From sequence record NC_048170.1: a stretch of 64,000 nt of DNA; one strand, written 5' to 3'. Source of the DNA: Escherichia phage vB_EcoM_Goslar. The position numbers and the translations under genes were made by a program. Numbering within the stretch: the stretch's first letter is position 1; the number at the start of each line of letters is the position of its first letter. Below, one piece after another: positions 26,495 through 64,000 of this stretch. The notes beneath the pieces were generated by a model. That model saw only the letters and a list, made by a program, of their open reading frames with translations. It was not told the origin of the DNA and made no database searches.

Positions 26495-26509
26495 AAAGCG
26501 TTATTCCTC

Positions 26510-28901: not shown

Positions 28902-29008
28902 TTGGGACTCCTACGTAGGAAAATCTTGGCGGGTGATCATGTCCGCCATTTACCTTCTGAACCGTTGATTCAGAAGTCAAAAGATAACCGGATACCAACG
29001 CCATAAAA

Positions 29009-29040
29009 CCTTCCTCCAACCCGTAAGGGAAGGAGGAAGG
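29009..29040. terminator. GC-rich hairpin ccttcctcc-aa-ccc-GTAA-ggg-aa-ggaggaagg
   Basis: Perfect stems; 3' of stop of gene 29051..30340. Confidence 0.6.
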
Positions 29041-29050
29041 GATATAGTGG

Positions 29051-30340: not shown

Positions 30341-30349
30341 GTTAGTTCC

Positions 30350-31666: not shown

Positions 31667-31714
31667 GTGTTGTCTCCAGTAATGATTCAAAAGATAAACC
31701 TGAGCGGCATAGAA

Positions 31715-42823: not shown

Positions 42824-42838
42824 AAAACACTCCGTTGG

Positions 42839-42869
42839 CCTAGGGGAAGGTTTTCAGCCTTCCCCTAGG
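42839..42869. terminator. hairpin cctaggggaagg-ttttcag-ccttcccctagg
   Basis: Perfect 12-bp stem, 7-nt loop; between stop 42883 and start 42823. Confidence 0.6.
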
Positions 42870-42882
42870 GTTATAAACACAA

Positions 42883-45687
42883 TTAAGCTAATTTACCGAA
42901 ACCGGCTTTCTGCAGTTTCTCGTTGATGATTTTCGCTTCAGCGAAGACGTAATCGCGGTAGGCGGTCACTAACGCATCCACACGTGAACGCAAGGCTTCT
43001 TCGAAGCTATACCACGCAGCGATTTCACGAATCTGTGCGTTGATATAATCAACGGTTGAGCGAAGCTCGGTTGCGTTTTCCTGCGGGATGGCTTTCACCT
43101 GGCGAGCAACGTCATTTAAACGACGGAACTGTGTTTCGATTTCTTTAAACTTATTGTCGGCAAGTTTGCTGAATTCGTCACCAGAACGGGTAAATAACAG
43201 ATAGCTGTTGCCATCAAGTGCGGTCGCTAACTGCTGAAGTACGTTGGTGTCCGGATACACAGGAGTACCGCTTTGCAGTACCTTCTCACCGAATTCCGCG
43301 AAGTCCTTCGGTGGTAAGTGCGCAGACGTTGTCAACTCGTTGAAACGGAAAGTCAGCGAACTATCATACAACATCCGGTACGCTTCCATACCCTGCTTCA
43401 TGGTGCCAGCCAGGTTGGCCAGACGCGGAGCAATCTCACCCTCTTTAGCGCGTTTCTGGTCTTCTAACGCCCCTTCGAGTTCTTTACACTGGTCGTTCAG
43501 ATACACGATACGATCGGGACGCAGACGACGCATCTCACGAAGAATGGTATCCAGCTTACCTTCCTGGAAATAACCTAGCGTTAAAGACGTACACGCTTGC
43601 TGAAGACGATCGAACACCGGTAAGGTTACCATCTCCTTACGGATACCATCAACAATCGCAGAAACAGCCGAAAGTTTCTGTTCTGTCGTTAATGGAACAT
43701 CAGAGACCGACTTGCTGGGCGCACCAACAACGTTACGCATTGCGTCGGTATCCTCGGTTTTATCAACCTCTTTACGAACATGCTCATCAGGAACATAAAC
43801 GTTCGCATTACGTTTCGCCTGCTTGATGGCATCGTTGGCCGCTTTTTCGGTGGCTGCTACGCTATCGGCACGTTTCTTCAAGAGTTCAATAATCCAGAGC
43901 ACCAGACGACGAATCGCAGTATAGGCCGTCGTGATGATGACACCGATAACAGCCATCTTCATGATACCGAACGATTCCATGGTCGGCTCTAATGCCTGGT
44001 CTGGCATATAGCGTTCACGCAGCTCCAGATAGATCTGCTCATCCGGTTTGCTGATCTCGCCACGATGCGAAGTCCGATAGATGGCTTCGTCAATCTCAAC
44101 AAGATCTTTGCGTGCCTGACGGTCTGTTTCGGTCAAATAAGCGCAGCCGGATACGTCGTCTTCAAAACTTTCGAACTTAAAGAAATCGACAACCATCTTG
44201 GCAAGCGCCTCTTTCTTAGCAGGATCGAGTGTCTTCGCATCTTCTTTTTGCTTATCCATTTTTTCCTTGAATTTCTCTTTGTAGTCATTCAAGGGTTTTA
44301 CCGCTCTTGCTTTCAACGCGTTATAGATAGCTTTCCACTCATCGTTACGTTCGAGGACAATGAAATGGTTTTTGAGTTCGAAAGCGCGATAGCGTGCAAC
44401 GAGCTGTTCTACCTGAATATGAGCGAGTTGGATATCCATTAACCAACGCGACATCGCCGAGATCAAACGGCTATAAGCGAACAACGTTTGGTAGGTTAAC
44501 TTCATGTATGTTTCATACAGCTCAATATCGCCGCTCTGAATATTGGCTGTTGGATTCATTTCCTTTGTTGCCTTGAAGACCTGTTCTGCTTCTCTCAGCG
44601 TCTTTTCGAACTTAACGTCATTAAACGCAGTGAATGGTTCAGCCAACTCATGCATTTTATCGTGGAGTTCGCGGATCCAAGCTTCCTTGCTGTCGCGGAT
44701 GGTGTTTTCATCATGGAGCACGGTTTGATGTTTTCGTACCCATTCTTCCACGATATCAGCAGCGGAAACAATCGGAACGCGATCTGAAATGAGCGGGACG
44801 ATCGTGTGAAGCGCCCCGACACATTCTGGCGTGTCCCAGTGTTTCTGGAGTTCATCACGGAAACGGTTAATGTTTTCTAAGGTGGTACCTAAATCAAGGA
44901 AAGTGCCGCCATTATGACTCATCTGTGCAACCAGATCGGCAAATACCTTTTGTTTTTCGATGACAAAAGGAACCATCCGCATAAGCCATTCAGCAGTTGC
45001 TTTAGCCTTTTCTTTCAGGTTCTTATCGGCGATTTCTTTAAGGTTAATCGCGCTACCGTATCCTGCAAGTTCGTTGTAGACGTCGTTAACCGTCATCTCT
45101 TTATCCAACATTTCTTTGAAACGTGGATAATCTGCACCTAACGCGTCGATGACTTCTTGGATGATGTCGTCTGTGGTAGCGATAAATTTATTTGTGCCGC
45201 CGTAATGGTTCCAGATTTTCTGTAGCGTCTTCTTAAAGAATTCGAAGACGAATGTCCAGATACGCTTAATGAGTTCCCAGACTTTCTTCGCACCATCGAC
45301 AAACAGTTTAGAGACTTTGGCAACGAATCCTTCCTGCACCAACTCAACGCCGTTACGTGATGGAATTTCGGTGAAGAAAGCATCTGGCAGTTGTTTCGGG
45401 AACGCGTCACCAAGACGCATACGCAATTCGGGTACATCGGCACGAGAAATACCGCGCGTCGTTAACTGCTCGTGAAGACGAACGTTTTCTTCACCAGAGG
45501 CTACGAATTCGTTAACGTCAAATGACACCAGTTCTTGATCTTCGGTGGTGACGACGCTTGAACCATCACTGGTTTGGATGTCTTCGTCAGGGAATGCCAT
45601 GAGCATACCGTGACGCATTTCAACCACTCCGTAATCGGTTGCTAAACCGAATTCGTTGTGATCGGGGGTAATAACTGGGATACTCAT
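42883..45687 (-). CDS. large virion protein (934 aa) carrying the paralog-family N-terminal motif
   Basis: ORF track; ATG; VELVQEGFVAKVSKLFVDGAKKVWELIKRIW aligns with VVEGFKDTVVKAMKKIWDII of gene 30350..31666. Confidence 0.85.
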   Translation of the reverse strand: MSIPVITPDHNEFGLATDYGVVEMRHGMLMAFPDEDIQTSDGSSVVTTEDQELVSFDVNEFVASGEENVRLHEQLTTRGISRADVPELRMRLGDAFPKQLPDAFFTEIPSRNGVELVQEGFVAKVSKLFVDGAKKVWELIKRIWTFVFEFFKKTLQKIWNHYGGTNKFIATTDDIIQEVIDALGADYPRFKEMLDKEMTVNDVYNELAGYGSAINLKEIADKNLKEKAKATAEWLMRMVPFVIEKQKVFADLVAQMSHNGGTFLDLGTTLENINRFRDELQKHWDTPECVGALHTIVPLISDRVPIVSAADIVEEWVRKHQTVLHDENTIRDSKEAWIRELHDKMHELAEPFTAFNDVKFEKTLREAEQVFKATKEMNPTANIQSGDIELYETYMKLTYQTLFAYSRLISAMSRWLMDIQLAHIQVEQLVARYRAFELKNHFIVLERNDEWKAIYNALKARAVKPLNDYKEKFKEKMDKQKEDAKTLDPAKKEALAKMVVDFFKFESFEDDVSGCAYLTETDRQARKDLVEIDEAIYRTSHRGEISKPDEQIYLELRERYMPDQALEPTMESFGIMKMAVIGVIITTAYTAIRRLVLWIIELLKKRADSVAATEKAANDAIKQAKRNANVYVPDEHVRKEVDKTEDTDAMRNVVGAPSKSVSDVPLTTEQKLSAVSAIVDGIRKEMVTLPVFDRLQQACTSLTLGYFQEGKLDTILREMRRLRPDRIVYLNDQCKELEGALEDQKRAKEGEIAPRLANLAGTMKQGMEAYRMLYDSSLTFRFNELTTSAHLPPKDFAEFGEKVLQSGTPVYPDTNVLQQLATALDGNSYLLFTRSGDEFSKLADNKFKEIETQFRRLNDVARQVKAIPQENATELRSTVDYINAQIREIAAWYSFEEALRSRVDALVTAYRDYVFAEAKIINEKLQKAGFGKLA

Positions 45688-47689: not shown

Positions 47690-49189
47690 ATGAGCGAACA
47701 AGAACGAAAACCTAAGAAGAAACTGCTCGGTATTCAATGTCGACACATCAGCTATAACGAAGCGAACGATGGCAGCAAGAACGACCTCATGATCGCAAAA
47801 GAGATCATGTTCTTTGATGATAATACGCAAGCGACGAACCTTCGCTTCTTTGAGAATTACAAACGTCCGTTTTGGGTGACAGTAGAGAGTAAACGTAAGA
47901 ACAAATATAAAAAGGAAAGCGAGAAGCTGTCACATGTGCGACGCTACGATGTCCGTCAAAGTGAACTGGTTGAAAAGATCAGTTCGGTGCTTTATAAAAG
48001 ACGTGCCGATGATAACACCCGTTTACAGCAGCTTGCACGGAGTCCATACCTCTATGGAACGGACGTTAGCGCCAGCTGTTATTTAAAAACCCAATACAAT
48101 ACAAAATGGCCGGAATACGTCGATAAATTACCCGCTTCTATCGCCTGTTTCGATATCGAAACTGACGTTGTCCATGGACACGGTAAGATCGTCTGTATGT
48201 CTATTACAATGGGATACAATGCGATACTTTGCTATACCAAGGACTTCGTTGGTCATATTCCGAATGCGATTGAGAAAACTCATGAGAAGATTCGATATTA
48301 TCTGGCCGAACGTCTGAATACCAAAGAAGATCCTCACGCGTTCGAAAAATATCATTACGATGTGCGAATCGTAGAAAGTCCGGCACAAGCGGTCATCCAA
48401 TGCATGCAAAAGGTTCACGAATGGCAGCCGGATTATCTCCTCGGCTGGAATATCGCGTTCGATATTCCGCGCATGCTCCAGGCACTGAACGAGGAAGGGT
48501 ATCGTCCCGAGGATGTTTTCTCCGATCCTCGTGTACCACCTAAATATCGTATTGCTCGCTGGGTACCACCGAAGACCGACAAGGTATCTGCTTCAGGTCG
48601 TAAAACCAACCTTACCCTCGAGCAGACCTGGCCGATGTTTTATACGATGGCTACGTATCAGGTTATGGATGCGATGTGTGGCTATAAGTTCGTTCGTTTA
48701 GGAAGACCGGATGAAGGACGCTATTCACTCGATGCGGTATTAGAGCGAAATAAATGCCATACGAAATTAAAAGCGATTCCTGGTACAGAAGGGTTCACGG
48801 AGCTTGCGTGGCACGAAGAAATGCAAACGAACCATCAAATCGACTACGGCGTATATAACCTTTGGGATAACCAAGGCATCGAGGCGTTGGACCAGAAAAC
48901 AAAAGACTATTCGATGACCATCCCTATCCGTTTAGCGGCGTCGGATTTGAAAGATTTCAGTTCTAACCCTAAACGTATCTGCGATAAACTTTTCTTCGTT
49001 TATCTTAACCGTGGGGAAGTCATGGGATGCACCGCCGACGACATGACCCAGGAAGAAGATAAGTGGGTTATCTCACGAACCGGACATATCGTCACATTAC
49101 CATGCGATCTCATGGCGGACAACGGCATTCATCTCTTCTGGGATATGCCTAATTTAAGGAGCTATATTCGATTATTTGTTGCGGATTAA
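47690..49189 (+). CDS. DEDD-type 3'-5' exonuclease-like protein (499 aa); possible exonuclease part of a split family-B DNA polymerase; probable exon 1
   Basis: ORF track; motifs ACFDIETD, GWNIAFDIPRM, YGVYNLWD in canonical Exo I/II/III order; no polymerase motifs; followed by HNH ORF and intron-like core. Confidence 0.65.
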   Translation: MSEQERKPKKKLLGIQCRHISYNEANDGSKNDLMIAKEIMFFDDNTQATNLRFFENYKRPFWVTVESKRKNKYKKESEKLSHVRRYDVRQSELVEKISSVLYKRRADDNTRLQQLARSPYLYGTDVSASCYLKTQYNTKWPEYVDKLPASIACFDIETDVVHGHGKIVCMSITMGYNAILCYTKDFVGHIPNAIEKTHEKIRYYLAERLNTKEDPHAFEKYHYDVRIVESPAQAVIQCMQKVHEWQPDYLLGWNIAFDIPRMLQALNEEGYRPEDVFSDPRVPPKYRIARWVPPKTDKVSASGRKTNLTLEQTWPMFYTMATYQVMDAMCGYKFVRLGRPDEGRYSLDAVLERNKCHTKLKAIPGTEGFTELAWHEEMQTNHQIDYGVYNLWDNQGIEALDQKTKDYSMTIPIRLAASDLKDFSSNPKRICDKLFFVYLNRGEVMGCTADDMTQEEDKWVISRTGHIVTLPCDLMADNGIHLFWDMPNLRSYIRLFVAD

Positions 49190-49257
49190 CCTTCGTTCTG
49201 TAAAAGTTTACTTCATGTAAGAATCGTGTGCGGCATAAGAGAGGCCGATACATCTAG

Positions 49258-50469
49258 ATGTTACATGAGGTTTACGAGATGGAAAAATCTATACATACTC
49301 AAACTGGAACTATTGACTATCGCGATTCAGCATATTTGCCGTACACAAATCATCGTTATCGTATATTTGAAGATGGCGAGTTGTACGACTATAAAGAAGA
49401 TAGGGTCGTCCCTTACGAAGTTGTAGACGGTGTCCCTTATGTTGAAATCGATTGGTATAGAGGCATTGGAAAATACGATCTCGGTATGATCATTCTCACC
49501 GTTCTTGAACGGGTTGCTTTACCAGATCACCTTTACGATGAAATTGAATCGTTGTTTGTGGACGGAGATCCGACTAACTTTTCGTATAGCAATCACATCT
49601 ACCGTTTCCGTAATGGGCCGTTAGAAGTTGAGGGATTCGAAGGTTATTGTTATATTCCGTTTGCATCTCGTTACGCGATAAATAAAGAAGGACATTGTAT
49701 TAGTCTTCTTTCGTTGGATCCTATCACGTGGACGAAAACGGTTCAGCAAGGCACACGTCTTGGCGGATACGCTTATCGTAAAGTGGTTCCCGACAGCGGG
49801 TTTACACCGCAGTTATATCGTCACCGAGCTATCATGTTAGCGTTTACGAGATATGATGCTAACGTTGTGAACTTAACTGTAAATCATAAAAACGGAATTA
49901 AAGGTGACGATTGGTTTGACAACCTCGAATGGGCGACATATGCCGAGAACAATCAACATGCTCGTATGGCAGGGTTGTGTATAGGTACGTCAAAACCTGT
50001 TTTGGTTTATGATTACCGTGCACGAATCGAACGTCGTTTTAATAGTATCGCAGAAGCGGAACGTGCTTATCCGTACGTGCCGAAAGGACGTTTCAAATGG
50101 TGGGTAAACAATCCTCCGAAACGTATCCCAGAATGCGATTTATACATCAAGTTTGCCACGGACAATACGCCTTGGCCGGAGTGGAAACTTGGAGAAGATC
50201 GTCGTGTCGAGGACACCGACGGTCGCGGTATTCTCGCTATTAATAAAGAGACGAACGAACGACATGTGTTTCCATCAGTAACTGCTGCCGCAAATGCGTT
50301 AGGAATCTCCTGGATTACCGTAAGACGTCATTGCGATCGTCGTGCAGTACCTACGAAACAGCCTTGGTGTTTTCGTTACGCTGATGATATCGCTGCCATG
50401 CCTGATTTCGATGTTAATAAATTAGTTCCTAAGAAGAAGCGTGTATTTAATGTCCCATTAGAACGATAA
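49258..50469 (+). CDS. HNH homing endonuclease (403 aa)
   Basis: ORF track; motif TVNHKNGIKGDDWFDNLEWATYAENNQH (His-Asn-His) plus NALGISWITVRRH helix-turn-helix-like segment; alternative ATG at 49279 has GAGG upstream. Confidence 0.8.
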   Translation: MLHEVYEMEKSIHTQTGTIDYRDSAYLPYTNHRYRIFEDGELYDYKEDRVVPYEVVDGVPYVEIDWYRGIGKYDLGMIILTVLERVALPDHLYDEIESLFVDGDPTNFSYSNHIYRFRNGPLEVEGFEGYCYIPFASRYAINKEGHCISLLSLDPITWTKTVQQGTRLGGYAYRKVVPDSGFTPQLYRHRAIMLAFTRYDANVVNLTVNHKNGIKGDDWFDNLEWATYAENNQHARMAGLCIGTSKPVLVYDYRARIERRFNSIAEAERAYPYVPKGRFKWWVNNPPKRIPECDLYIKFATDNTPWPEWKLGEDRRVEDTDGRGILAINKETNERHVFPSVTAAANALGISWITVRRHCDRRAVPTKQPWCFRYADDIAAMPDFDVNKLVPKKKRVFNVPLER

Positions 50470-50945
50470 CAGGTCCCCCTACTTGTAATGAGTGGGTGAA
50501 CTCTCTTTAATTGCTGGAAACCTTTAATGCCCCTCCACACCACAACGCAATCCGAAAGGGTAAACGTGATGGTTGTCGAAAGACAGAAAAAAGTTGGAGG
50601 GGATTACCTATGTTGCAATAAAAGCCACCGCTTTCTTGGATAACGAAAGATGACGGTGGTACTAAGGGTAGAAGATAGAAATAAGGTAACCGTAGCAGCG
50701 AAGACCCTACGGACTGTCGTGACCGACTCGATGAGTTGGCGTGGTTAACACGGACAGGCTACGGGTAACGTTCAACGACCATCCGGTTGCGCGGAGTAGG
50801 AGAATTAGGATGTTCTCTGAAAAGGGAGAAGTCGGTCGAGGTGTTGTAGAAACACCATTCGGTTTGCTAACGCAAACCTAAGGCAGGCTAAGATATGGTC
50901 TATTTTTCGTTGTGTTCATGTATAGAAATTACTGAACCATCGTAA
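50470..50945 (+). ncRNA. group I intron catalytic core (candidate), 3' part of an intron carrying the HNH ORF
   Basis: P-like aattgctggaaacc 50509..50522, R-like gttcaacgacca 50770..50781, S-like aagatatggtct 50890..50901 in canonical order; R/S pairing GACCA/UGGUC is compensatory relative to canonical GACUA/UAGUC; region is ORF-free. Confidence 0.5.
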
Positions 50946-51203
50946 GAGCTCGATATATCTTCAAGCTATCCAAATGGGCAGATACTGCTCAATCTATCCA
51001 GAGCATGTGTTTTTCGTGAGCTCTCACGCATTGAGGGCGTCTCTGACTATCAATTCAGGAAGCTAGGTATCAACTTTATCACTGGAGGTAAAACGAACGC
51101 TGTAGACTTCTGTAGAATCGTTTATAAAGCGCCATCGATGTTTGAACTTTTAGAACATTTCGATGCGACGCGTCCAAAAGAGGAAGCGCGGACCATCGAA
51201 TGA
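50946..51203 (+). other. candidate 3' exon: start-less open frame ending at TGA 51201..51203
   Basis: Frame open 50946..51200, protein-like translation (..ACVFRELSRIEGVSDYQFRKLGINFITGGKTNAVDFCRIVYKAPSMFELLEHFDATRPKEEARTIE), followed by hairpin terminator 51251..51282; splice site not determined. Confidence 0.3.
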
Positions 51204-56076: not shown

Positions 56077-57378
56077 TTAACTAATATAAAGTTCAGGATC
56101 GTAAGGCGCTAACGATACACTGGCGTTATGCATTGCTTTCATCATAGTGTTCATGAAAACGTTGTTTACACCGGTGATCTCCGCCCCGATCGCGTCTGGG
56201 GTTGGAGCCATCGCGTTACCGCAACAGGTAGCACAGTATTCCAACGGACCCGCTTTACAGCGCTGAGGATCGCGTAACTTGATGGTTTGTCCTTCCAAGG
56301 AAGCAAGTAATTCAGCATCAATAAGTTTAAGCGCCGCACCGTCGATCATGTAACGGCCGACAAGCAGCTTATCTTTGATATGATCGCGGTTTACCGTGAA
56401 CAGAATATGTTCTTGGGTACCACAGTCGTCCATCGTGATTTTAAGGTTCTGTGTCGCACGTTGTGATTCTTTCGCCGTCTGTCCCGCTAAAGCGGTCAAC
56501 GCACCACGTGAGAACGAACCCGCACGTGCACTGTTGTTGTACTCCGCCCAATGGTCGACACGCATCCCTTCAGCCAGGCTGTGCGTGATAACGTTACGTT
56601 TACCAGGGTCAACGAAGTCGGCTTCAACCCCCATCATGATGTGCGTTTTCTTTCGAGTATTACCGAAACTCTTGCCAGGGTTAATATAGAACCCTTCCGA
56701 TTCGTCGCCCTTAAAGGATTCCTTATCCATTTTGGTTAGCGTGGCTTCGAGTTTAATAAGTTCTTCAGGCGTGAACTTACCTTCCTCTTGCAGACGCGCT
56801 AACTCTTTATCACGATAGGCAATAATATCGTCATCGACCGTTAACGCTTTATCGCTCATCGATGGGACAATTAAACGGTTGATGGCGGTTAATGCGCTGA
56901 TATTGTTGGTGAATTTCTTCACTTCGCTTGCGTACAGCGGGCCAATAGGACGTTCGTTAGGATCGGGTATCCCCTCTTCGGGATCGTCCGCTACGCGCGG
57001 CGCAATCAGTGATTCCAGTGTACCGCTGGTCAACCGTCCTGCCTGATATTCAATCTGAATACCGAAAGCATCATAAAGGACGTACATATTGAACAACGCT
57101 TCACCGAAGGTTGTGGTGGTCGTATTCTTAACCGACGGTAGATCACCAGGTGCGAGCTCCAATGGCTCCCAGAAACTCAACAAGGGTTTTGTTGGCTCGG
57201 TTTCCCATTGATGTTCCTCACCGTCGATGGTAACCGTAACGACGTTACCTTGACGACGTAATTTGGGCTGATACTTCTCAGCACCACCTTCCGTAAAAGC
57301 AAATGCGTCGTTAATCCATTCAAGATAACGGTAGTGCCCTTCACGCATCGCGTAAAGGAAATATTCACGAGGTGTCAT
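56077..57378 (-). CDS. hypothetical protein (433 aa) with C-terminal Cys cluster
   Basis: ORF track; ATG with AAGGAG 7 nt upstream; CKAGPLEYCATCCGN near C-terminus. Confidence 0.8.
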   Translation of the reverse strand: MTPREYFLYAMREGHYRYLEWINDAFAFTEGGAEKYQPKLRRQGNVVTVTIDGEEHQWETEPTKPLLSFWEPLELAPGDLPSVKNTTTTTFGEALFNMYVLYDAFGIQIEYQAGRLTSGTLESLIAPRVADDPEEGIPDPNERPIGPLYASEVKKFTNNISALTAINRLIVPSMSDKALTVDDDIIAYRDKELARLQEEGKFTPEELIKLEATLTKMDKESFKGDESEGFYINPGKSFGNTRKKTHIMMGVEADFVDPGKRNVITHSLAEGMRVDHWAEYNNSARAGSFSRGALTALAGQTAKESQRATQNLKITMDDCGTQEHILFTVNRDHIKDKLLVGRYMIDGAALKLIDAELLASLEGQTIKLRDPQRCKAGPLEYCATCCGNAMAPTPDAIGAEITGVNNVFMNTMMKAMHNASVSLAPYDPELYIS

Positions 57379-57391
57379 GTAACAACTCCTT

Positions 57392-58264
57392 TTAAACCTG
57401 GGTCAGGTCGCCGCGACGTGAAACGAACTCTGATAACGCTCGGGTTGCTTCTTTGGATTCTTCAGCCATCGGGAAGTTTGCGGTAATAAGTTCTCGTAAG
57501 ACGGGAATAATTTCATTATCTTCGAGATCAGAAGCTAAAGCGAATGCAATCAGTTCTTGGGTGTATGCATACGGTTGCTGGCGTAATGTAGCCAACTGAT
57601 TCCGACACTGCGCCATCAGCAAGTCTAGTGGAACCGCTATCGTACCCCCTTCATCAATATACTGGCTGAACACCGGTGGGAACGCATCGCTGATGACACG
57701 AATTCGTCGACGAATATGATCCGGAATCAGGACGTTTTCTTCGTCGGTGATATTTTCGCTGTCTTTCTCCAGCTTCTTGGTCAGTACCTGTTGAATGCGT
57801 GGAAGTAAGCTTGAATGTACGAAATTGATTAACGGTGTTACGTTAACAGCATCAACGCCGTAAATATGATGCGCGCATTCCGCCAGCACTTCAGCTGTGG
57901 TGTAGTCTTCATCTTCAACGATAGCGAGTAGAAAAGCGGTATCGTCGTGTGTTTCCAGGTCTAATAACGTAGACGCCAGTGCATGAAGATATTTCAGGCT
58001 ATCCAGAGTTAGCTGTCCTTCGTTAATTCGGATCCCGAAGGCAAGCAATTGTTGTTTATAAAGTTCGATACATCCGTTTGTTAAAATGATATCTAATTCG
58101 TTTAAATCGTATTGTTCCCCAGCACCTGATAACATCGTACTGCAGAACGTTTCCAGTTGTTCGCATTTAAAATCTTGGTATAAACGATGCATGCAGTGCT
58201 GTAACAGCGTACGCCTTGTTTCAGGGATCTTACCTTCTAACAAAGCCAAGACGGAATCAATCAT
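57392..58264 (-). CDS. hypothetical protein (about 290 aa)
   Basis: ORF track frame; track start is GTG, ATG at 58264 has GGAGTGG upstream. Confidence 0.75.
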   Translation of the reverse strand: MIDSVLALLEGKIPETRRTLLQHCMHRLYQDFKCEQLETFCSTMLSGAGEQYDLNELDIILTNGCIELYKQQLLAFGIRINEGQLTLDSLKYLHALASTLLDLETHDDTAFLLAIVEDEDYTTAEVLAECAHHIYGVDAVNVTPLINFVHSSLLPRIQQVLTKKLEKDSENITDEENVLIPDHIRRRIRVISDAFPPVFSQYIDEGGTIAVPLDLLMAQCRNQLATLRQQPYAYTQELIAFALASDLEDNEIIPVLRELITANFPMAEESKEATRALSEFVSRRGDLTQV

Positions 58265-58360
58265 ATCCACTCCGATGCGGTAAATGTCTACTAGCTCTCA
58301 TAATCTATTGAAGAAACTACCAGCTTACGCCAACTTAGATTAATCAGGAGTAACCATCCC

Positions 58361-58834
58361 ATGCCAGTTTCATCCAAACCAAGAAAAAAATCCGTAGGAA
58401 ACCCTAAAGCTCAGGAAACAACAGCAATTCGTTGGGACGAGTTACGTGAACCTATCGAAAACTGCGAATTGTTATTGGGCACCCTGGGTGCGGCTATTTA
58501 CCAAGCGACGCAACCCTGTCGTTTACGATTAACCCAAAACAAACGTGATGAGTTCGTTGCGTTATCAACGAGCACGAATAAAGATCTGACCGAACTTCAA
58601 ACCGAGTTGACGACGATCAAGAACTCCATTACGCCGATGTATGGTAAAGAAGTCGATGAACAAAGTATTCTGTTACAGTACAACTACGGGATGTCGTTAA
58701 TGAACATCCTGGAACGCGCATCCGATATTCTGCGTCCTGACGTTGCACGCCTGAGCCAACTGCGTGTTGAAGGGATGGAGAACCAGATCCGATTCGCTAA
58801 CAGTGTTAAATCTCAAGGAGCCACCGAAGCATGA
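58361..58834 (+). CDS. hypothetical protein (157 aa)
   Basis: ORF track; ATG start. Confidence 0.65.
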   Translation: MPVSSKPRKKSVGNPKAQETTAIRWDELREPIENCELLLGTLGAAIYQATQPCRLRLTQNKRDEFVALSTSTNKDLTELQTELTTIKNSITPMYGKEVDEQSILLQYNYGMSLMNILERASDILRPDVARLSQLRVEGMENQIRFANSVKSQGATEA

Positions 58835-60495
58835 GCGAACAAGAAAAAGAAGTCGTGACGAATCAGGAAGCCACCGAACGTTCAGAGTCGTCCGTTGAAA
58901 CTACGATTCCGGCAAGTTCCGAGCCGGTTGGTTCCGCACAGCAGGAAAGTAAAGAAGATGTAGTGGCTCCAGAAGCAACCCGTGAAGAAGAACCATCACA
59001 TCCACCGCTAATCGATTTCTCGAAGGCGACGATACGTTTCCAATGCGAAGACATTCGTCCTAAGAGTCCGAAGAAAACAAAACGTCAGCCGTTGGTGTTA
59101 CCGCTGTATTCTCCGCGTGTACAGACAGCGTATTACCGGGAATACATCAACGAAGCAATGGATACCGTACAAGCCATTGTCGCTCAACGCGGTAAACCGA
59201 CAGACGAACAGTTTGATAAATTCAGTAAAGCGGTGGTGCAATCGGTTGCTGATGGACAATATCATCCGCGTGGTCCAGCTCACGATCGTGCGTTGGAACG
59301 TAAGGGCAGTCAGTGGACTAACGTGCCCGTAGACTCATCGGGTGTTGGTCGCGTTATTCCTGGCATCCCGCAACCGAACCATATTCCTGATGATGTCGAA
59401 GCGCCGCTGACAGGAACCGATGCGATCTATTTTGCCATCCGTAATACGAAATCAGGTGCGCCTGCGGTAATGCCGTTATGGCATAGCGGTATTAAGCTGC
59501 AGTTTAATCCGCCGTCAAATGAACGTGTCGCAATTATGCACGAACGTATTGCCCGCGATAAAATCCTGGGTGGACGTGATAGTACCGGTTTCCTGTTTTC
59601 GGCAACCTCGATTATCACCATGAAGCACGCAATCGAATTAGCATTAGAATGCTGCTACATGGCCAACGTACCTAACCTGGATATCCAGCGTTTGAAAGAC
59701 ATTATTCCGGTTACCGATGTTCCAGCGTTATTGTTGAACGTGCTGGTAACCATGTATCCGTACGGATATCCTTACGTACAGACCTGCTATCAGAATCCAG
59801 AAACCTGCGACTATCGTGTTGAAGATACCGTAAGCTTTGCGAAACTCTATCAAGTTGACAACAGCGCAATAACCAAACGTATGCGACAGATCATGACCGA
59901 AGGTCCGGTCATGACAGATGAACTTTTGCGTGAGTATGCAAACGAACTGGGTGAAACAAACTCCCGTACGTTGGATCTGTCCGACAACGGTTCTGTTATC
60001 ATTGAACTTGAAGTACCGAAGATTTCACGTCAGATCGCCATGGGCGAACGCTGGTTAAGCGATACCCTGGAAGATCTGCGTGATATTCTATCGCGTCCGT
60101 CAATGACCGAAGAAGAGCGTGATCGTGTTATTCGTGAACGTCAGTTCTATAGCTGGATGCGTCAGTATGATGCATGGATCAAATCCATGCACGTGTCAGT
60201 AAACGGCACCATGCGTCGTGTAAGCGATGCGGATACAGCAACGGTATTAGCGCAGCTGTCTCGTGATAGCGATCTTCGTGAACGCTATATCGATGGGTTG
60301 ATGCAATTCATCGGTGATTCGACGATTGCGCTCGCAGCGATGCCTGCCTGGAAATGTCCGAAATGTAATACCGATATTGCCGACAATCTGCGTGACCAGA
60401 AATACTACGATCTGATTGCTTTGGATGTACCCCAGCTTTTTTTTACCCTAAACTCCGTCCAATCTCTTCAGGAGGGGATGGACGCGGTATTCTAA
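58831..60495 (+). CDS. hypothetical protein (554 aa)
   Basis: ORF track; ATG with AAGGAG 12 nt upstream; start overlaps upstream stop (ATGA). Confidence 0.8.
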   Translation: MSEQEKEVVTNQEATERSESSVETTIPASSEPVGSAQQESKEDVVAPEATREEEPSHPPLIDFSKATIRFQCEDIRPKSPKKTKRQPLVLPLYSPRVQTAYYREYINEAMDTVQAIVAQRGKPTDEQFDKFSKAVVQSVADGQYHPRGPAHDRALERKGSQWTNVPVDSSGVGRVIPGIPQPNHIPDDVEAPLTGTDAIYFAIRNTKSGAPAVMPLWHSGIKLQFNPPSNERVAIMHERIARDKILGGRDSTGFLFSATSIITMKHAIELALECCYMANVPNLDIQRLKDIIPVTDVPALLLNVLVTMYPYGYPYVQTCYQNPETCDYRVEDTVSFAKLYQVDNSAITKRMRQIMTEGPVMTDELLREYANELGETNSRTLDLSDNGSVIIELEVPKISRQIAMGERWLSDTLEDLRDILSRPSMTEEERDRVIRERQFYSWMRQYDAWIKSMHVSVNGTMRRVSDADTATVLAQLSRDSDLRERYIDGLMQFIGDSTIALAAMPAWKCPKCNTDIADNLRDQKYYDLIALDVPQLFFTLNSVQSLQEGMDAVF

Positions 60496-60587
60496 TCGAT
60501 CCGCGATACGGGTTACACGACGGGCAACTTGTTCGTAATGATGAAAAAATCTGGGAATTGCTGTTAGCGCGTAAAGGCGATGGTGGC

Positions 60588-60917
60588 ATGAAGCTGAACA
60601 TCGAAATGGGTATTGCGTACGATACCATGTTTGGCTTGTACGATCGTGTTAACGACTGGACGCCGTTGAAATGGGTGGCTCAGCATCCCGCTGAAGATCC
60701 CTGGGACAGATTAGGGATTAAACCCTTAATCGAGGATTATGTCCGATTCGGTATTAAAGAGTTCATGACGCTGGATGCGTTTTTAAAAGCACCGTATCCT
60801 TACGCGCAAACGGTACTCAAAATCGCACAAGACGAACTGCGGAAACGTAGTGCGGTACTGGACGACGATGAGGACAAGTTACGACGAGAAGAAGAACGTT
60901 TACGAAACGGAAAATAA
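60588..60917 (+). CDS. small hypothetical protein (start uncertain)
   Basis: ORF track frame 60558..60917 begins with TTG; first ATG at 60588. Confidence 0.45.
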   Translation: MKLNIEMGIAYDTMFGLYDRVNDWTPLKWVAQHPAEDPWDRLGIKPLIEDYVRFGIKEFMTLDAFLKAPYPYAQTVLKIAQDELRKRSAVLDDDEDKLRREEERLRNGK

Positions 60918-60918
60918 A

Positions 60919-61428
60919 ATGGCGAGATTTACCAGTTTGATTGGATTGGACATTTGGGAAACACCGGCTGACGTTCGGGTTATTCCTGTCAACACCGTCG
61001 GTGTGATGGGACGTGGTCTTGCCAAGCAGGCTGCCGAGCGCGTGCCCGGTCTTCTTGAAGCGTACCGCAAGCAATGTCGAGATGGGTTTACGGTGGGTGA
61101 AGTCGTGTCATATCAGCATGGCGAGAACGATCAGCTCACCTACGTGTTGTTTCCATCAAAATCGGATTGGCGTGAAAGAACACGACGCGAGTATATCGTT
61201 AACGGTTTACTGGCGTTAAAAGCATGGTTATTGGAGCTTCAGTTCGAAAGAGACGGCTTCTCATACCACCGTCCGGCTGAACCGTTGATTGTCGCAATTC
61301 CTCCGGTTGGTTCTGGTTGCGGTAATATCGGTTACGGACAATCCGAAACAATCCAGCCTCAGTGGGTACGCGCACAAATCAAACAGTATCTTGCCACCGT
61401 ACCGAACGTTCATTTCTACTTGTTCTAA
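60919..61428 (+). CDS. macro-domain protein (Poa1p-like, putative ADP-ribose processing enzyme, 169 aa)
   Basis: ATG at 60919 directly after upstream TAA; motifs VIPVNTVGVMGRGLAKQAA and VAIPPVGSGCGNIGYG resemble macro-domain Gly-rich loops; ORF-track start 60850 would overlap upstream gene. Confidence 0.6.
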   Translation: MARFTSLIGLDIWETPADVRVIPVNTVGVMGRGLAKQAAERVPGLLEAYRKQCRDGFTVGEVVSYQHGENDQLTYVLFPSKSDWRERTRREYIVNGLLALKAWLLELQFERDGFSYHRPAEPLIVAIPPVGSGCGNIGYGQSETIQPQWVRAQIKQYLATVPNVHFYLF

Positions 61429-61444
61429 TGCAACGGTAACATAA

Positions 61445-61476
61445 CCCTCTCCCAACCCAGCAGGGAAGGGAGAGGG
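61445..61476. terminator. GC-rich hairpin ccctctccc-aa-ccc-AGCA-ggg-aa-gggagaggg, bidirectional terminator candidate
   Basis: Perfect stems between convergent genes; flanked by cataac / gcttatg arms. Confidence 0.6.
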
Positions 61477-61493
61477 CTTATGCTGTTATGCTA

Positions 61494-61868
61494 TTAATGT
61501 TCGTTCCAGATGGCATCTTCCGGTGGAACAATAGGATCTTTCCTTGGCATTGACGGCACTTCATGACGATGCTTACGGAACTGCCTATCAATAACCTCAC
61601 GAAGCCGGTACGCGTCAACCCATGTTGATTTATTGAACAGCTCCAATGTCACAGTTAATCGTGTTCTTGACATTGAATAGCTTTTCTTTGCAATCAAATT
61701 GGGATAATTCAGTTGAGCGAACCATGCACGTATTTGTGCTTCGGTAAAAGCGATGCTGTAATAACTAAGTTTACCGTCATTAAAATCGTGCGCGTGGGTG
61801 TAGCGTCCAGCGTAACGCCAGACAAGATGCACATTCAGATCGATCCATGGTGGGGTGGTATCAGCCAT
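61494..61868 (-). CDS. hypothetical protein (124 aa)
   Basis: ORF track; ATG with GAGGG 5 nt upstream. Confidence 0.6.
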   Translation of the reverse strand: MADTTPPWIDLNVHLVWRYAGRYTHAHDFNDGKLSYYSIAFTEAQIRAWFAQLNYPNLIAKKSYSMSRTRLTVTLELFNKSTWVDAYRLREVIDRQFRKHRHEVPSMPRKDPIVPPEDAIWNEH

Positions 61869-61877
61869 GTGTTACCC

Positions 61878-62447
61878 TCAACGATTCTTCATCACTTTAC
61901 CCAGGCTTTCGATATTATCCCAAAAGCGATTTTTACTTGGTGCATCGCCAACGATGACCGACATCAAATCGCGACGTTCACGACTGATGATGCCTTGTGA
62001 TTTCCAGATCACCATCGTCCAGCAAGCTGCCAGAACGAACAGATGGTTAATGCTCGGTTTGGTTTGTGCGATGAACGCAAGCCATGCCCAGATACCGGTA
62101 TATACTATCGTCACTAAAAAGAGGGAGATTGTTGCAACGACAACAACGAAGTTTTGGACAGCGGGTTGATTCGCGTTATCATGAATAGCGGTAAGATCAG
62201 GAAGGTTACCTTCAACTGAACTCGTTTCATCGATTTCCAATTCTTCGATTTCTTTTCGTGTGTCGGGAGCTAATCCGGCATCATCAAGATGCTTTTTTAA
62301 CCGCTGTATACTTAATCGTTGACCGACAGGAATGTTGATGTTGTCGTAACTATTAAGCGCATCAACCAGGGAGCGTCCATCAACGAGAACCAAGCTCGCA
62401 GTACCCATTGTCTGCGGTTTTATTTTGTAAAGGTCTTTTACTTTCAT
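61878..62447 (-). CDS. hypothetical membrane protein (189 aa, two predicted TM helices)
   Basis: ORF track; ATG with GGAGGTGG upstream; hydrophobic segments FVVVVATISLFLVTIVYTGIWAWLAFIA and LFVLAACWTMVIW. Confidence 0.65.
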   Translation of the reverse strand: MKVKDLYKIKPQTMGTASLVLVDGRSLVDALNSYDNINIPVGQRLSIQRLKKHLDDAGLAPDTRKEIEELEIDETSSVEGNLPDLTAIHDNANQPAVQNFVVVVATISLFLVTIVYTGIWAWLAFIAQTKPSINHLFVLAACWTMVIWKSQGIISRERRDLMSVIVGDAPSKNRFWDNIESLGKVMKNR

Positions 62448-62468
62448 GTAGACACCACCTCCAACGTG

Positions 62469-64000
62469 TTAAGCGTCTGGTGTAAAATCAAAAGGAATGT
62501 CCGTACGAATGATATCATAACGTTTTCCTAATAAATAGAACTCTTCGGGAACCTGGCCGGGAATAATGCTATCGCCGATGAACTGCGGATACGCCCAGAT
62601 GTACTGAGTGAGTCCTTCGAACATATCCAGGTTATTTGCGTGGTTACCCATGATACGTTTCCAGAGTTCGCGTTTATACGGTGTTTTAACATCGAATCCA
62701 TAAAGCGGTGCAAGATCTTCACCAGGAACAAATCCCAGGTAATAATGGATCTGACTAACCGGGAAACCAAGCGTATCTCGCGGAATGGTGATCGCTTGCT
62801 CAGCCTTGGTGACATGCGTTTCAATAATCCAGTCGTAGCACTCCGAATAGAACCGATCGAATTTCTCTGGGTTATACCACGCTTTGGGAAGATTCAGTTT
62901 CTCCGTGAACGCGTTCGACATGATCGTCGGCAAGAACGGAAGAACGCCGGTTTTGATCTGCGTGTATTTCGATTTTACCCGGTTAACCAAATTCCAGCAA
63001 CTGTATCCTAATTGGTCGTTACAAAACTCAACGTAGAGATCGTAGTCACCACCGGATAACGGGTTGTTAATATCACCGATGTCTGCGGCGTATTTGTTGG
63101 GATATCGGTTATTGAAAGCCAGTTTGGTTTGGTAATCGTAGATACACGGTTTGTTGTTCGCTGTATTGATCCACCACCAGGGTTCACCTACTTGTACACA
63201 AATGTCCTGGACATGGGGGTAGATGATATCAGCAAACGCGGTTAACACATCCCCTAACCACGCCATCGCCTGTTGGTTACATGGAGACAGCAACCAGGAC
63301 GGTGGTGTATATCCGGTTGCTGCGATGTTTCCTTCCCAATCCTGCTGCGCCCACTCGAATGGACACGCCGTACTCATCAATTCGTAACTTAAACTGATGG
63401 TGACAGAGAAATGGTGTTTTGCAGCATATGCGGCGAAAGCTTCATGCCACGCGATACAGGGTGGATTTAATACATCCGTGGTGTTCACCAGTAACTTACC
63501 CGCACTTGGCGTCCAGACAGTATCGTAGAAATGCGACATTCCAACATAATGCACTAATTCATCCTGATATCCCGCATAAACCAGGTTTTCAAATACACGC
63601 TCTGGCGTGATGTTGTAATGGTCATCGTAAGCGGTTATCGCACGAAGTTCGTGTGGCGTACAATGATGGCGATTAACCGTCATTTCCTGATACACCCCAT
63701 CGATAGGAAGAATCTCGAGGGTTAAACCGAGGTCGATTGGCGTTTCCAGATAGGTCGTTTCAGTCGCATCTTCCTTATAATGTCGAGAACTCATGCTGAA
63801 CATCAACGACGTTACCGATTCAAGTTCGATAGGTTCGTCAGCATAGAACCCCGCCATTGCGTCATTGAAATCGATCGTCACGATTGCGCTTGTACCGTCT
63901 TCAGAGACGTCGGTCGCATATCGGGTTAATGAGATATACTGACGGCTATCGTCTTTGTGTACGATGGTTAGAACCGGCGGGTTTTCGGTATCTGCAAAGT
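62469..64000 (-). CDS. hypothetical protein, 5' end probably beyond window end (>=510 codons in window)
   Basis: ORF track gives 62469..63881 from GTG, but the same frame has no stop from 63882 to 64000 (checked codon by codon) and stays protein-like. Confidence 0.65.
   Translation of the reverse strand, partial: FADTENPPVLTIVHKDDSRQYISLTRYATDVSEDGTSAIVTIDFNDAMAGFYADEPIELESVTSLMFSMSSRHYKEDATETTYLETPIDLGLTLEILPIDGVYQEMTVNRHHCTPHELRAITAYDDHYNITPERVFENLVYAGYQDELVHYVGMSHFYDTVWTPSAGKLLVNTTDVLNPPCIAWHEAFAAYAAKHHFSVTISLSYELMSTACPFEWAQQDWEGNIAATGYTPPSWLLSPCNQQAMAWLGDVLTAFADIIYPHVQDICVQVGEPWWWINTANNKPCIYDYQTKLAFNNRYPNKYAADIGDINNPLSGGDYDLYVEFCNDQLGYSCWNLVNRVKSKYTQIKTGVLPFLPTIMSNAFTEKLNLPKAWYNPEKFDRFYSECYDWIIETHVTKAEQAITIPRDTLGFPVSQIHYYLGFVPGEDLAPLYGFDVKTPYKRELWKRIMGNHANNLDMFEGLTQYIWAYPQFIGDSIIPGQVPEEFYLLGKRYDIIRTDIPFDFTPDA

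What the first reader, a model, noticed from the sequence alone, without database searches (positions are those of the whole stretch)
60919..61428. Macro-domain (Poa1p-like) protein: candidate counter-defence enzyme
The 169-aa protein has Gly-rich loops VNTVGVMGRGLAKQAA and IPPVGSGCGNIGYG that resemble macro-domain ADP-ribose-binding motifs. Macro domains hydrolyse ADP-ribose adducts or derivatives, and bacterial defence systems use ADP-ribosylation or ADP-ribose-derived signals (for example DarT or Thoeris, from general knowledge). A phage macro domain is therefore a plausible anti-defence factor, or a tRNA-splicing-related phosphatase linked to the nearby intron biology.
Basis: partly seen in the sequence, partly recalled or inferred. 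Interest (0 to 1): 0.65.

Follow-up and report, generated by a model that had tools for sequence, protein, structure and literature searches.

The report
Phage Goslar AdfM anti-DarT macrodomain
This gene is gp83 of the nucleus-forming E. coli jumbo phage Goslar, a small DarG-type macrodomain enzyme already filed in a published family (AdfM) that strips the ADP-ribose that the bacterial DarT2 toxin puts on phage DNA, so it is real but already known.

Summary
ORF 60919..61428 (+) encodes a 169-aa protein carrying both quoted Gly-rich loops, and it is a genuine macrodomain. Pfam Macro is only just above threshold, but DarG-specific profiles give E about 1e-22. An AlphaFold model built with an alignment (pLDDT 91.8) superposes best on the DarG macrodomains of Thermus aquaticus and M. 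tuberculosis.

It is not Poa1p-like. It belongs to the DarG/TARG1 branch and keeps N25 (DarG N22), catalytic K81 (K80), W84 (W83) and the Gly loop, with Gly where TARG1 has Asp125. It lacks DarG's C-terminal DarT-binding domain.

The window is Escherichia phage vB_EcoM_Goslar: the protein equals residues 18-186 of Goslar gp83, and four other window proteins are exact Goslar proteins. Morgan et al. (Cell Rep 2026, PMC13309987) name Goslar gp83 as a homologue of AdfM (PhiKZ gp104). They show that PhiKZ AdfM is imported into the phage nucleus, removes DarT2 ADP-ribose from ssDNA and protects against DarTG2.

The anti-DarT idea is therefore supported by homology. The tRNA-splicing alternative is not. 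Goslar gp83 itself remains untested.

Side results:
- The GenBank start is probably 17 codons too long.
- The Goslar clade has two lineage-specific insertions.
- A group I intron with an HNH gene splits the nearby DNA polymerase gene.

The parts
60919..61428 (+). adfM-type gene (Goslar gp83), 169 codons plus TAA. A stand-alone DarG2-type macrodomain.
   Evidence: ORF and translation. It is 100% identical to residues 18-186 of Goslar gp83, YP_009820768.1. It is 32% identical over its full length to PhiKZ gp104/AdfM, E 1e-25. DarG profile hits, PDB hits and fold match.
60988..61035 (+). Loop 1, VNTVGVMGRGLAKQAA (residues 24-39). It includes N25 (codon 60991-60993), the equivalent of T. aquaticus DarG N22 and PhiKZ AdfM N23.
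   Evidence: Alignment. N25, G28, G31 and G33 are invariant in 112 homologues. N22A in DarG and N23A in PhiKZ AdfM reduce activity.
61150..61170 (+). FPSKSDW (residues 78-84). K81 (codon 61159-61161) is the equivalent of the catalytic DarG K80 / TARG1 K84. W84 is the equivalent of DarG W83, proposed to stack on the modified thymine.
   Evidence: Alignments. K81 is invariant and W84 conserved in at least 90% of 112 homologues. DarG K80A is inactive.
61297..61338 (+). Loop 2, IPPVGSGCGNIGYG (residues 127-140), the diphosphate-binding Gly loop. G131, G133 and G135 correspond to DarG G117, G119 and G121. G135 sits where TARG1 has Asp125.
61240..61284 (+). Insertion 1 relative to DarG (about residues 108-122, LQFERDGFSYHRPAE), the least confident part of the model. 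An insertion occurs at the same position in PhiKZ, Phabio and PS119XW AdfM. It is absent from Erwinia/Salmonella chimallivirus AdfMs, Kuravirus macrodomains and DarG.
   Evidence: (pLDDT 67 for block 111-120). The PhiKZ gp104 nuclear-import recognition region (aa 66-115) spans the equivalent site.
61333..61356 (+). Insertion 2 (about residues 139-146, YGQSETIQ), directly after loop 2. It is found only in the Goslar clade (window, P0003, P0004, P0006).
   Evidence: pLDDT 78 for block 131-140.
61430..61491 (.). Strong hairpin in the 65-nt gap between the convergent genes gp83 (+) and gp84 (61494..61868, -). It is a likely transcript end or stabiliser, but has no T-run.
   Evidence: MFE -32.6 kcal/mol, z -4.6, 0 of 200 shuffles fold as well. 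The consensus terminator scan did not call it.
60588..60917 (+). Upstream co-directional gene (Goslar gp82, phrog_12109, function unknown). Its stop codon lies one base before the adfM ATG, and the adjacency is conserved in relatives L001, L002 and L003.

Best explanation
The gene is gp83 of Escherichia phage vB_EcoM_Goslar, a member of the AdfM (anti-DarT factor macro) family of chimalliviruses. It is a stand-alone DarG2-type macrodomain.

Proposed mechanism: when a host DarTG2 system is triggered, DarT2 ADP-ribosylates thymidines in single-stranded phage DNA. gp83 binds the ADP-ribose through its two Gly-rich loops and positions the modified base with N25 and W84. It then cleaves the thymidine-ribose bond using K81, restoring replicable and packageable DNA. 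It acts purely as an enzyme, because it lacks the second DarG domain that binds DarT.

By analogy with PhiKZ, PhiPA3 and Asesino AdfM, it is probably imported into the Goslar phage nucleus through PicA, where the phage DNA lies.

Shown here: the identity of the protein, its fold, its subfamily, conservation of the catalytic residues, and absence of the DarT-binding domain. Shown by others for homologues only: the enzyme activity, nuclear import and protection. Inferred for gp83: all three of those.
For: Identity:
- The protein is 100% identical to residues 18-186 of Goslar gp83.
- Window proteins are exact matches to Goslar_00041, 00081, 00084 and 00085.

Family:
- Goslar gp83 is listed with PhiKZ gp104, PhiPA3 gp108 and Asesino gp217 in the AdfM alignment of PMC13309987.
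- It is 32% identical to PhiKZ gp104 over the full length, E 1e-25.
- PhiKZ AdfM removes DarT2 ADP-ribose from DNA, rescues DarT2 toxicity, localises to the phage nucleus, and its loss sensitises PhiKZ and PhiPA3 to DarTG2.

Subfamily:
- PADLOC DarG 3.4e-22 and NCBIfam antitoxin_DarG 7.5e-23.
- Family profile against PDB: DarG macrodomains 4e-51 and 5e-50, TARG1 5e-18, Poa1p 2e-8.
- Foldseek top four hits are all DarG or DarTG structures, TM 0.80/0.88 and rmsd 2.0 A to 5m3e, using a pLDDT 91.8 model.

Active site:
- N25, K81, W84, G131, G133 and G135 align with DarG N22, K80, W83, G117, G119 and G121.
- K80A inactivates DarG and N22A is the next most damaging mutation. The DarG macrodomain alone is sufficient as antitoxin.

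Host relevance:
- E. coli (EPEC) has a DarTG that ADP-ribosylates ssDNA (abstract of PMC7003065).
- Goslar forms a nucleus and has an essential PicA.
Against: - No biochemical, localisation or genetic data exist for Goslar gp83 itself. The paper uses it only in an alignment.
- It is only about 30% identical to the tested proteins.
- DarG N120, an ADP-ribose contact, is Cys134 here. T79 is Ser80 and H82 is Asp83.
- Two clade-specific insertions lie next to the substrate-binding loop and could alter specificity.
- PicA-dependent import is phage-specific, and its signal cannot be read from sequence.
- No synteny with the PhiKZ adfM locus.
Confidence: 0.8

Rival explanations
1. A de-ADP-ribosylase with a different or broader substrate than DarT2-modified thymidine. 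Candidates are ADP-ribosylated RNA or protein (host ART toxins or the phage's own modifications), guanine-ADP-ribose made by DarT1, or O-acetyl-ADP-ribose. The protein would use the same Lys-based chemistry but counter another system.
For: - TARG1, the next closest solved relative, acts on protein-linked ADP-ribose.
- Many source annotations call homologues 'O-acetyl-ADP-ribose deacetylase'.
- The Goslar clade has insertions beside loop 2 and N120 replaced by Cys.
- Thousands of stand-alone bacterial and metagenomic homologues exist whose roles are unknown.
Against: - Sequence and fold are clearly closer to DarG than to TARG1.
- W84, the proposed thymine stacker, is kept, and Gly replaces TARG1's Asp125, both as in DarG.
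- The tested family member acts on DarT2-modified DNA.
- DarT1 adducts are reversed by NADAR enzymes rather than macrodomains.
Confidence: 0.12
2. A Poa1p-like ADP-ribose-1''-phosphate phosphatase that clears a by-product of tRNA or RNA splicing and is linked to the introns in this genome.
For: - PHROG 335 and several phage records label homologues 'phosphatase' or 'Appr-1-p processing'.
- Poa1p appears among weaker fold hits.
- A group I intron lies 10 kb away.
Against: - Poa1p scores 2e-8 against 4e-51 for DarG with the family profile, at 16-17% identity and rmsd above 5 A.
- 'Appr-1-p processing' is a legacy name that was also given to the DarG macrodomain entry 5m31.
- Group I introns self-splice by transesterification and do not generate Appr>p or Appr-1''-p (established knowledge).
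- No tRNA genes and no RNA-repair genes were seen near the ORF.
Confidence: 0.03
3. A catalytically dead ADP-ribose binder, either a sponge for ADP-ribose-derived immune signals such as Thoeris gcADPR or a reader module.
For: Macrodomains can act as binders only.
Against: - All residues whose mutation inactivates DarG are retained: N22 (as N25), K29 (conservatively, as R32), K80 (as K81) and G119 (as G133). N25, K81 and G133 are invariant across 112 homologues; R32 is not.
- The homologue is an active enzyme.
Confidence: 0.03

Closest known systems
AdfM (anti-DarT factor macro), PhiKZ gp104; Morgan et al., Cell Rep 2026 (PMC13309987)
   Same: Both are stand-alone macrodomains of about 160 aa encoded by a chimallivirus. 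They are 32% identical over the full length. The catalytic Asn and Lys are conserved, and there is an insertion at the same position after the long helix. Goslar gp83 is named as a family member in the paper.
   Different: Goslar gp83 has not been tested. It carries a second, clade-specific insertion after loop 2 and lacks the PPW... C-terminal tail of the Pseudomonas proteins. Its genomic neighbourhood is unrelated.
DarG2 antitoxin macrodomain (T. aquaticus 5M31/5M3E, M. tuberculosis 5M3I)
   Same: These are the best solved-structure matches by sequence and fold. They share N22/K80/W83 and Gly-loop equivalents and the same predicted Lys-based removal of ADP-ribose from thymidine.
   Different: gp83 has no C-terminal DarT-binding domain: 169 aa against about 340, and 81 bits against the NCBIfam cutoff of 250. 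There is no adjacent darT. It is encoded by a phage, has two insertions, and has Cys in place of N120.
TARG1 / C6orf130 (human terminal ADP-ribose glycohydrolase)
   Same: Same macrodomain branch and an equivalent catalytic Lys.
   Different: TARG1 has Asp125 and Ala90 where gp83 has Gly135 and Trp84. Identity is only 16-18%. TARG1 acts on protein-linked ADP-ribose.
AdfN (NADAR orphan antitoxin of T4-like phages; PMC11825919)
   Same: The same strategy: a phage carries an orphan copy of the antitoxin's enzymatic domain to erase DarT marks.
   Different: The fold is unrelated (NADAR), and AdfN is specific for guanine adducts made by DarT1.
Poa1p (yeast ADP-ribose-1''-phosphate phosphatase)
   Same: Macrodomain fold.
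   Different: Much more distant (profile E 2e-8, 16-17% identity, rmsd about 5 A), with different chemistry and biology.

Membership tests
Macrodomain superfamily (Pfam PF01661) | Score above the Pfam gathering threshold | tested here: met
   24.5 bits against a cutoff of 22, E 2.7e-5, residues 23-141. This is marginal on its own.
Macrodomain superfamily (Pfam PF01661) | Three-layer alpha/beta/alpha macro fold | tested here: met
   AF2 model with pLDDT 91.8. 180 PDB macrodomain-type matches at E <= 1e-3, with TM up to 0.88.
DarG2-type macrodomain clade | Closest to DarG macrodomains rather than TARG1, MacroD or Poa1p | tested here: met
   PADLOC DarG 3.4e-22. NCBIfam DarG 7.5e-23. Profile against PDB: DarG 4e-51, TARG1 5e-18, Poa1p 2e-8. 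Foldseek ranks 1-4 are DarG structures.
DarG2-type macrodomain clade | Catalytic Lys (K80), Asn (N22), Trp (W83) and the G117/G119/G121 loop, with no TARG1-type Asp125 | tested here: met
   K81, N25, W84, G131, G133 and G135 align to these positions. The roles of the residues are taken from PMC5179494. N120 is Cys134 here.
Full-length DarG antitoxin of a DarTG2 toxin-antitoxin module (NCBIfam NF048014) | C-terminal DarT-binding domain, with a whole-protein score above cutoff | tested here: not met
   The protein is 169 aa. The match covers only profile positions 7-146 of 338, at 81 bits against a cutoff of 250.
Full-length DarG antitoxin of a DarTG2 toxin-antitoxin module (NCBIfam NF048014) | Adjacent darT toxin gene | tested here: not met
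   The neighbours are phage genes gp79-gp86. They have no Pfam family at all except a tail-sheath TIM barrel, and only phage PHROGs.
AdfM (PMC13309987) | Homologue of PhiKZ gp104 | tested here: met
   32% identity, E 1e-25, full length. The protein is identical to Goslar gp83, which the authors list as an AdfM homologue.
AdfM (PMC13309987) | Encoded by a chimallivirus (nucleus-forming jumbo phage) | tested here: met
   Window proteins are exact Goslar proteins. The window holds a phiKZ-type major head protein and multisubunit RNAP beta subunits. The Goslar nucleus and PicA are documented in PMC11087766. Chimallin itself is not in this window.
AdfM (PMC13309987) | Conserved catalytic Asn (PhiKZ N23) | tested here: met
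   N25 aligns with it.
AdfM (PMC13309987) | Removes DarT2-installed ADP-ribose from ssDNA and neutralises DarT2 toxicity | not testable with these tools
   Shown only for PhiKZ gp104.
AdfM (PMC13309987) | Imported into the phage nucleus (PicA-dependent) | not testable with these tools
   Shown for the PhiKZ, PhiPA3 and Asesino proteins. There are no Goslar data and no recognisable sequence signal.
Poa1p-type ADP-ribose-1''-phosphatase | Closest similarity to Poa1p | tested here: not met
   Foldseek rank 15, 16-17% identity, rmsd 5.2 A. Profile E 2e-8, against 4e-51 for DarG.
MacroD-type hydrolases | Nx6GG[V/L/I]D and G[V/I/A][Y/F]G catalytic motifs (from general knowledge) | tested here: not met
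   Loop 1 reads NTVGVMGRGLA, with no GGxD. No MacroD structure appears among the top hits.

The most novel reading that the evidence does not exclude
The Goslar-clade AdfM may be a functionally shifted variant. Its two lineage-specific insertions (residues about 108-122 and about 139-146) flank the diphosphate loop, and it has Asn replaced by Cys at the DarG N120 position. These changes could retune substrate range, for example toward the EPEC-type DarT motif or toward non-DNA ADP-ribose adducts. Alternatively, they could constitute the Goslar-specific surface read by PicA for nuclear import. In that case the insertions would be a readable 'nuclear address' on a defence-erasing enzyme. DarG-type stand-alone macrodomains in non-nucleus phages (Kuravirus) lack the insertions.
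Probability: 0.15. Interest if true: 0.45.

Novelty: already known. Interest (0 to 1): 0.2.

Why it matters
AdfM shows that the phage nucleus is not a complete shield, and that jumbo phages also carry an orphan antitoxin enzyme to erase DarT2 marks on their DNA. Recognising gp83 as the Goslar member places this counter-defence in an E. coli model chimallivirus that can be knocked down with CRISPRi-ART. That makes it testable in E. coli against E. coli DarTG2 systems.

For genome annotation, the practical points are three. Such proteins should be labelled DarG-type or AdfM rather than 'phosphatase' or 'Appr-1-p processing'. The Goslar gp83 start codon is probably mis-set. The same enzyme type also occurs in phages without a nucleus.

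Tried and rejected
- Single-sequence AlphaFold gave an unusable model (pLDDT 35.8). It was repeated with a 112-sequence alignment.
- Megablast of 58300-62500 against the phage collection found nothing, and accession MK327938 is not in that collection. The best tblastn phage hits were below 40% identity. The phage was instead identified through exact-sequence cluster look-ups.
- An exact look-up of the 186-aa product among encoding contigs found no record.
- Sigma-70 promoter and intrinsic-terminator scans of 58000-62000 gave fewer sites than shuffles did. This is expected for a phage that uses its own RNA polymerases.
- Synteny with the PhiKZ-type adfM locus was tested: only the macrodomain gene matches within +/-4 kb.
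- I tested whether insertion 1 is a general chimallivirus hallmark. It is not: it is absent from the Derbicus, SPLA3 and Kwan proteins.
- The E. coli 77-kb phages with homologues first looked N4-like to me. Their records show they are Kuravirus, Gordonclarkvirinae.
- Rfam at gathering threshold found nothing in the window. The intron appeared only with the E-value threshold.
- The Poa1p, MacroD, sponge and tRNA-splicing readings were considered and rejected, as set out under the rival explanations.

Full report
**1. Observation**

The + strand carries an ORF with ATG at 60919 and a TAA ending at 61428. It encodes 169 residues. The ATG follows the stop codon of a co-directional upstream gene by one base. 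A strong hairpin (61430-61491, -32.6 kcal/mol, z -4.6) fills the gap to the convergent downstream gene.

**2. The protein is a macrodomain**

- Pfam Macro (PF01661) passes only narrowly, at 24.5 bits against a gathering score of 22.
- Profiles specific for the DarG antitoxin are unambiguous. PADLOC DarG gives E 3.4e-22. NCBIfam antitoxin_DarG gives E 7.5e-23 over profile positions 7-146 of 338.
- phmmer against PDB sequences returns only DarG-type macrodomains at meaningful E-values. These are T. aquaticus 5m31/5m3e at 7e-15, M. tuberculosis 5m3i at 1e-12, and the Thermosipho DarTG fusion 7omu at 7e-5.
- A single-sequence AlphaFold run failed (pLDDT 35.8).
- With a 112-sequence alignment the model reached pLDDT 91.8 and pTM 0.89.
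- Foldseek against the PDB ranks the DarG macrodomains first to fourth, with 5m3e at TM 0.80/0.88, rmsd 2.0 A and 29% identity. TARG1 follows, and Poa1p is only 15th at 16-17% identity and rmsd about 5 A.
- The family profile gives the same order: DarG 4e-51 and 5e-50, TARG1 5e-18, Poa1p 2e-8.

**3. Active site**

I aligned the protein with the T. aquaticus and M. tuberculosis DarG macrodomains and with TARG1, using sequences taken, and with PhiKZ gp104. The equivalences are:

| Goslar gp83 | T. aquaticus DarG |
|---|---|
| N25 | N22 |
| R32 | K29 |
| Q37 | Q34 |
| S80 | T79 |
| K81 | K80 |
| W84 | W83 |
| G131, G133, G135 | G117, G119, G121 |

- G135 occupies the position of TARG1 Asp125, as it does in DarG.
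- In DarG, K80A abolishes activity and N22A is the next most damaging mutation. W83 is proposed to stack on the modified thymine. The macrodomain alone suffices as antitoxin (PMC5179494).
- N25, G28, G31, G33, K81, G131, G133 and G135 are invariant in 112 homologues.
- The differences from DarG are Cys134 for N120, Asp83 for H82, and two insertions (about 108-122 and about 139-146).
- The protein stops after the macrodomain, so the DarT-binding C-terminal domain of DarG is absent. No darT-like gene is nearby.

**4. Whose gene it is**

- Megablast against the phage collection found nothing. All tblastn hits were below 40% identity.
- Exact-sequence cluster look-ups identified the phage. The protein is 100% identical to residues 18-186 of Goslar gp83 (QBO63876.1 / YP_009820768.1).
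- Four other window proteins are exact matches to Goslar_00041 (major head protein), Goslar_00081, Goslar_00084 and Goslar_00085.
- The window is therefore Escherichia phage vB_EcoM_Goslar. It holds a phiKZ-type major head protein, virion proteins, a helicase, a DNA polymerase and multisubunit RNA polymerase beta-subunit genes.
- Goslar forms a phage nucleus and depends on the importer PicA (PMC11087766).

**5. What is already known**

Morgan et al. (Cell Rep 2026, PMC13309987) describe AdfM, 'anti-DarT factor macro', whose prototype is PhiKZ gp104.

- It is a DarG2-like macrodomain found in about half of chimalliviruses.
- It localises to the phage nucleus. This was tested for the PhiKZ, PhiPA3 and Asesino proteins.
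- PhiKZ AdfM removes ADP-ribose placed by DarT2 on the TNTC motif of ssDNA, and N23A reduces that activity.
- It fully rescues DarT2 toxicity in E. coli.
- It is needed for PhiKZ and PhiPA3 to resist DarTG2 systems.
- The legend to their alignment figure lists Goslar gp83 (YP_009820768.1) among the AdfM proteins.
- Goslar gp83 is 32% identical to PhiKZ gp104 over the full length (E 1e-25). That is closer than to any DarG.
- No experiment on gp83 itself was found.

**6. Mechanism**

The best-supported reading follows. After a host DarTG2 system is triggered, DarT2 ADP-ribosylates thymidines in single-stranded phage DNA. gp83 binds the ADP-ribose with its two Gly loops and cleaves the base-ribose bond through K81, assisted by N25 and W84. 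It acts without binding DarT.

The fold, subfamily and residues are shown here. Activity, protection and nuclear import are inferred from homologues. E. coli DarTG systems exist (EPEC; abstract of PMC7003065), so the target is plausible in Goslar's host range.

**7. Rival readings**

- A broader or different ADP-ribose substrate remains possible, at about 0.12. The reasons are the clade-specific insertions and the Cys134 substitution.
- The Poa1p or tRNA-splicing idea is rejected. Similarity to Poa1p is remote. The 'Appr-1-p processing' label is a legacy name that was even attached to the DarG structure entry. There are no tRNA genes in the window. The nearby intron is a self-splicing group I intron.
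- A non-catalytic binder or sponge is unlikely, because every residue critical in DarG is retained.

**8. Additional points worked out**

(a) Start codon. GenBank gives 186 aa and some assemblies 217 aa. Several lines favour ATG 60919:
- The 217-aa frame contains a stop codon in Goslar.
- The 47%-identical relative L001 has a stop 6 codons upstream of the aligned ATG.
- The 17-codon extension overlaps the gp82 C-terminus. It changes at 4 of 17 positions between Goslar and L002, while gp82 changes at one.
- PhiKZ gp104 starts at the equivalent Met.

(b) Insertions. Insertion 1 is shared in position with PhiKZ, Phabio and PS119XW AdfM. It is absent from Erwinia and Salmonella chimallivirus AdfMs, from Kuravirus macrodomains and from DarG. 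Insertion 2 is confined to the Goslar clade. The PhiKZ gp104 region needed for nuclear import (aa 66-115) spans the insertion-1 site. This is a lead, not evidence.

(c) Synteny. The adfM neighbourhood is not conserved between Goslar and a PhiKZ-like phage. The gp82-gp83 adjacency is conserved within the Goslar clade.

(d) Distribution. DarG-type stand-alone macrodomains also occur in phages not annotated as chimalliviruses. Examples are Kuravirus podophages of E. coli (next to spanin genes), Klebsiella phage FBKp24 and a Pseudoalteromonas phage. Thousands more occur in bacterial and metagenomic sequences. Macrodomains are reported in 56% of jumbo phages (PMC9503650).

**9. Verdict**

The feature is real and correctly delimited. 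Its general interpretation as a macrodomain counter-defence enzyme against DarT is right. The subfamily label and the splicing alternative are wrong. The protein is a named member of a family published in 2026, so the novelty class is 'already known' and the interest is low, about 0.2. What remains open is direct testing of the Goslar protein and the meaning of its clade-specific insertions.

Noticed in passing
window 47690-51203 (+): The family-B DNA polymerase gene is split by a group I intron carrying an HNH homing-endonuclease ORF. Exon 1 is 47690..49189 and ends '...RLFVAD'. The HNH ORF is 49258..50469. An Rfam Intron_gpI match lies at 50405..50923 (44.7 bits, just under the gathering score of 50, E 1.4e-9, full model). 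An exon-2 reading frame from about 50949 to 51203 begins 'LDISSSYPNG' (PolB motif A). Joining the two exons raises the phrog_3011 match from 503 bits (profile 5-494) to 595 bits (profile 5-570 of 576).
   Followed up: yes
window 60868-60918 (+): The GenBank annotation of Goslar gp83 (186 aa) and some assembly annotations (217 aa) probably start too early. The extension overlaps the gp82 C-terminus, is interrupted or absent in relatives, and evolves like non-coding sequence in that frame.
   Followed up: yes
whole window; clusters of gp41, gp78, gp81, gp83-85: Identical or near-identical Goslar proteins sit on contigs of 234-259 kb in many isolate assemblies labelled E. coli (including O157), Salmonella enterica serovars, Shigella and Enterobacter, and in many Logan/ENA runs. 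This suggests that Goslar-like jumbo phages are commonly carried with, or contaminate, enterobacterial cultures, possibly as a carrier state or pseudolysogeny.
   Followed up: no
window 61430-61491: A long, nearly perfect hairpin lies between the convergent genes gp83 and gp84 (-32.6 kcal/mol, z -4.6). It has no T-run and so was missed by the terminator scan. It may be a bidirectional transcript end for the phage RNA polymerases.
   Followed up: partly
L010 374-814 and L011 359-799 (Kuravirus phages EK5, EC.W14-3); L013; L012: DarG-type stand-alone macrodomains of 146-148 aa, with the catalytic Asn and Lys conserved, occur in small E. coli podophages (Kuravirus), directly after the spanin genes. 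They also occur in Klebsiella phage FBKp24 and a Pseudoalteromonas phage, none of which is annotated as nucleus-forming. AdfM-like counter-defence is probably not restricted to chimalliviruses.
   Followed up: partly
window 23117-31690, 40031-45687 (- strand): Several large ORFs (1125, 385, 433, 429, 446, 930 and 934 aa) have no PHROG family at E <= 1e-5, although they sit among conserved phiKZ-type virion and replication genes.
   Followed up: no
window 56077-57378 (-): The RNA polymerase beta-subunit fragment (phrog_2962) is at most 34% identical to any phage in the INPHARED-based collection. This shows how isolated the Goslar lineage is once Goslar itself is missing from that collection.
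   Followed up: no
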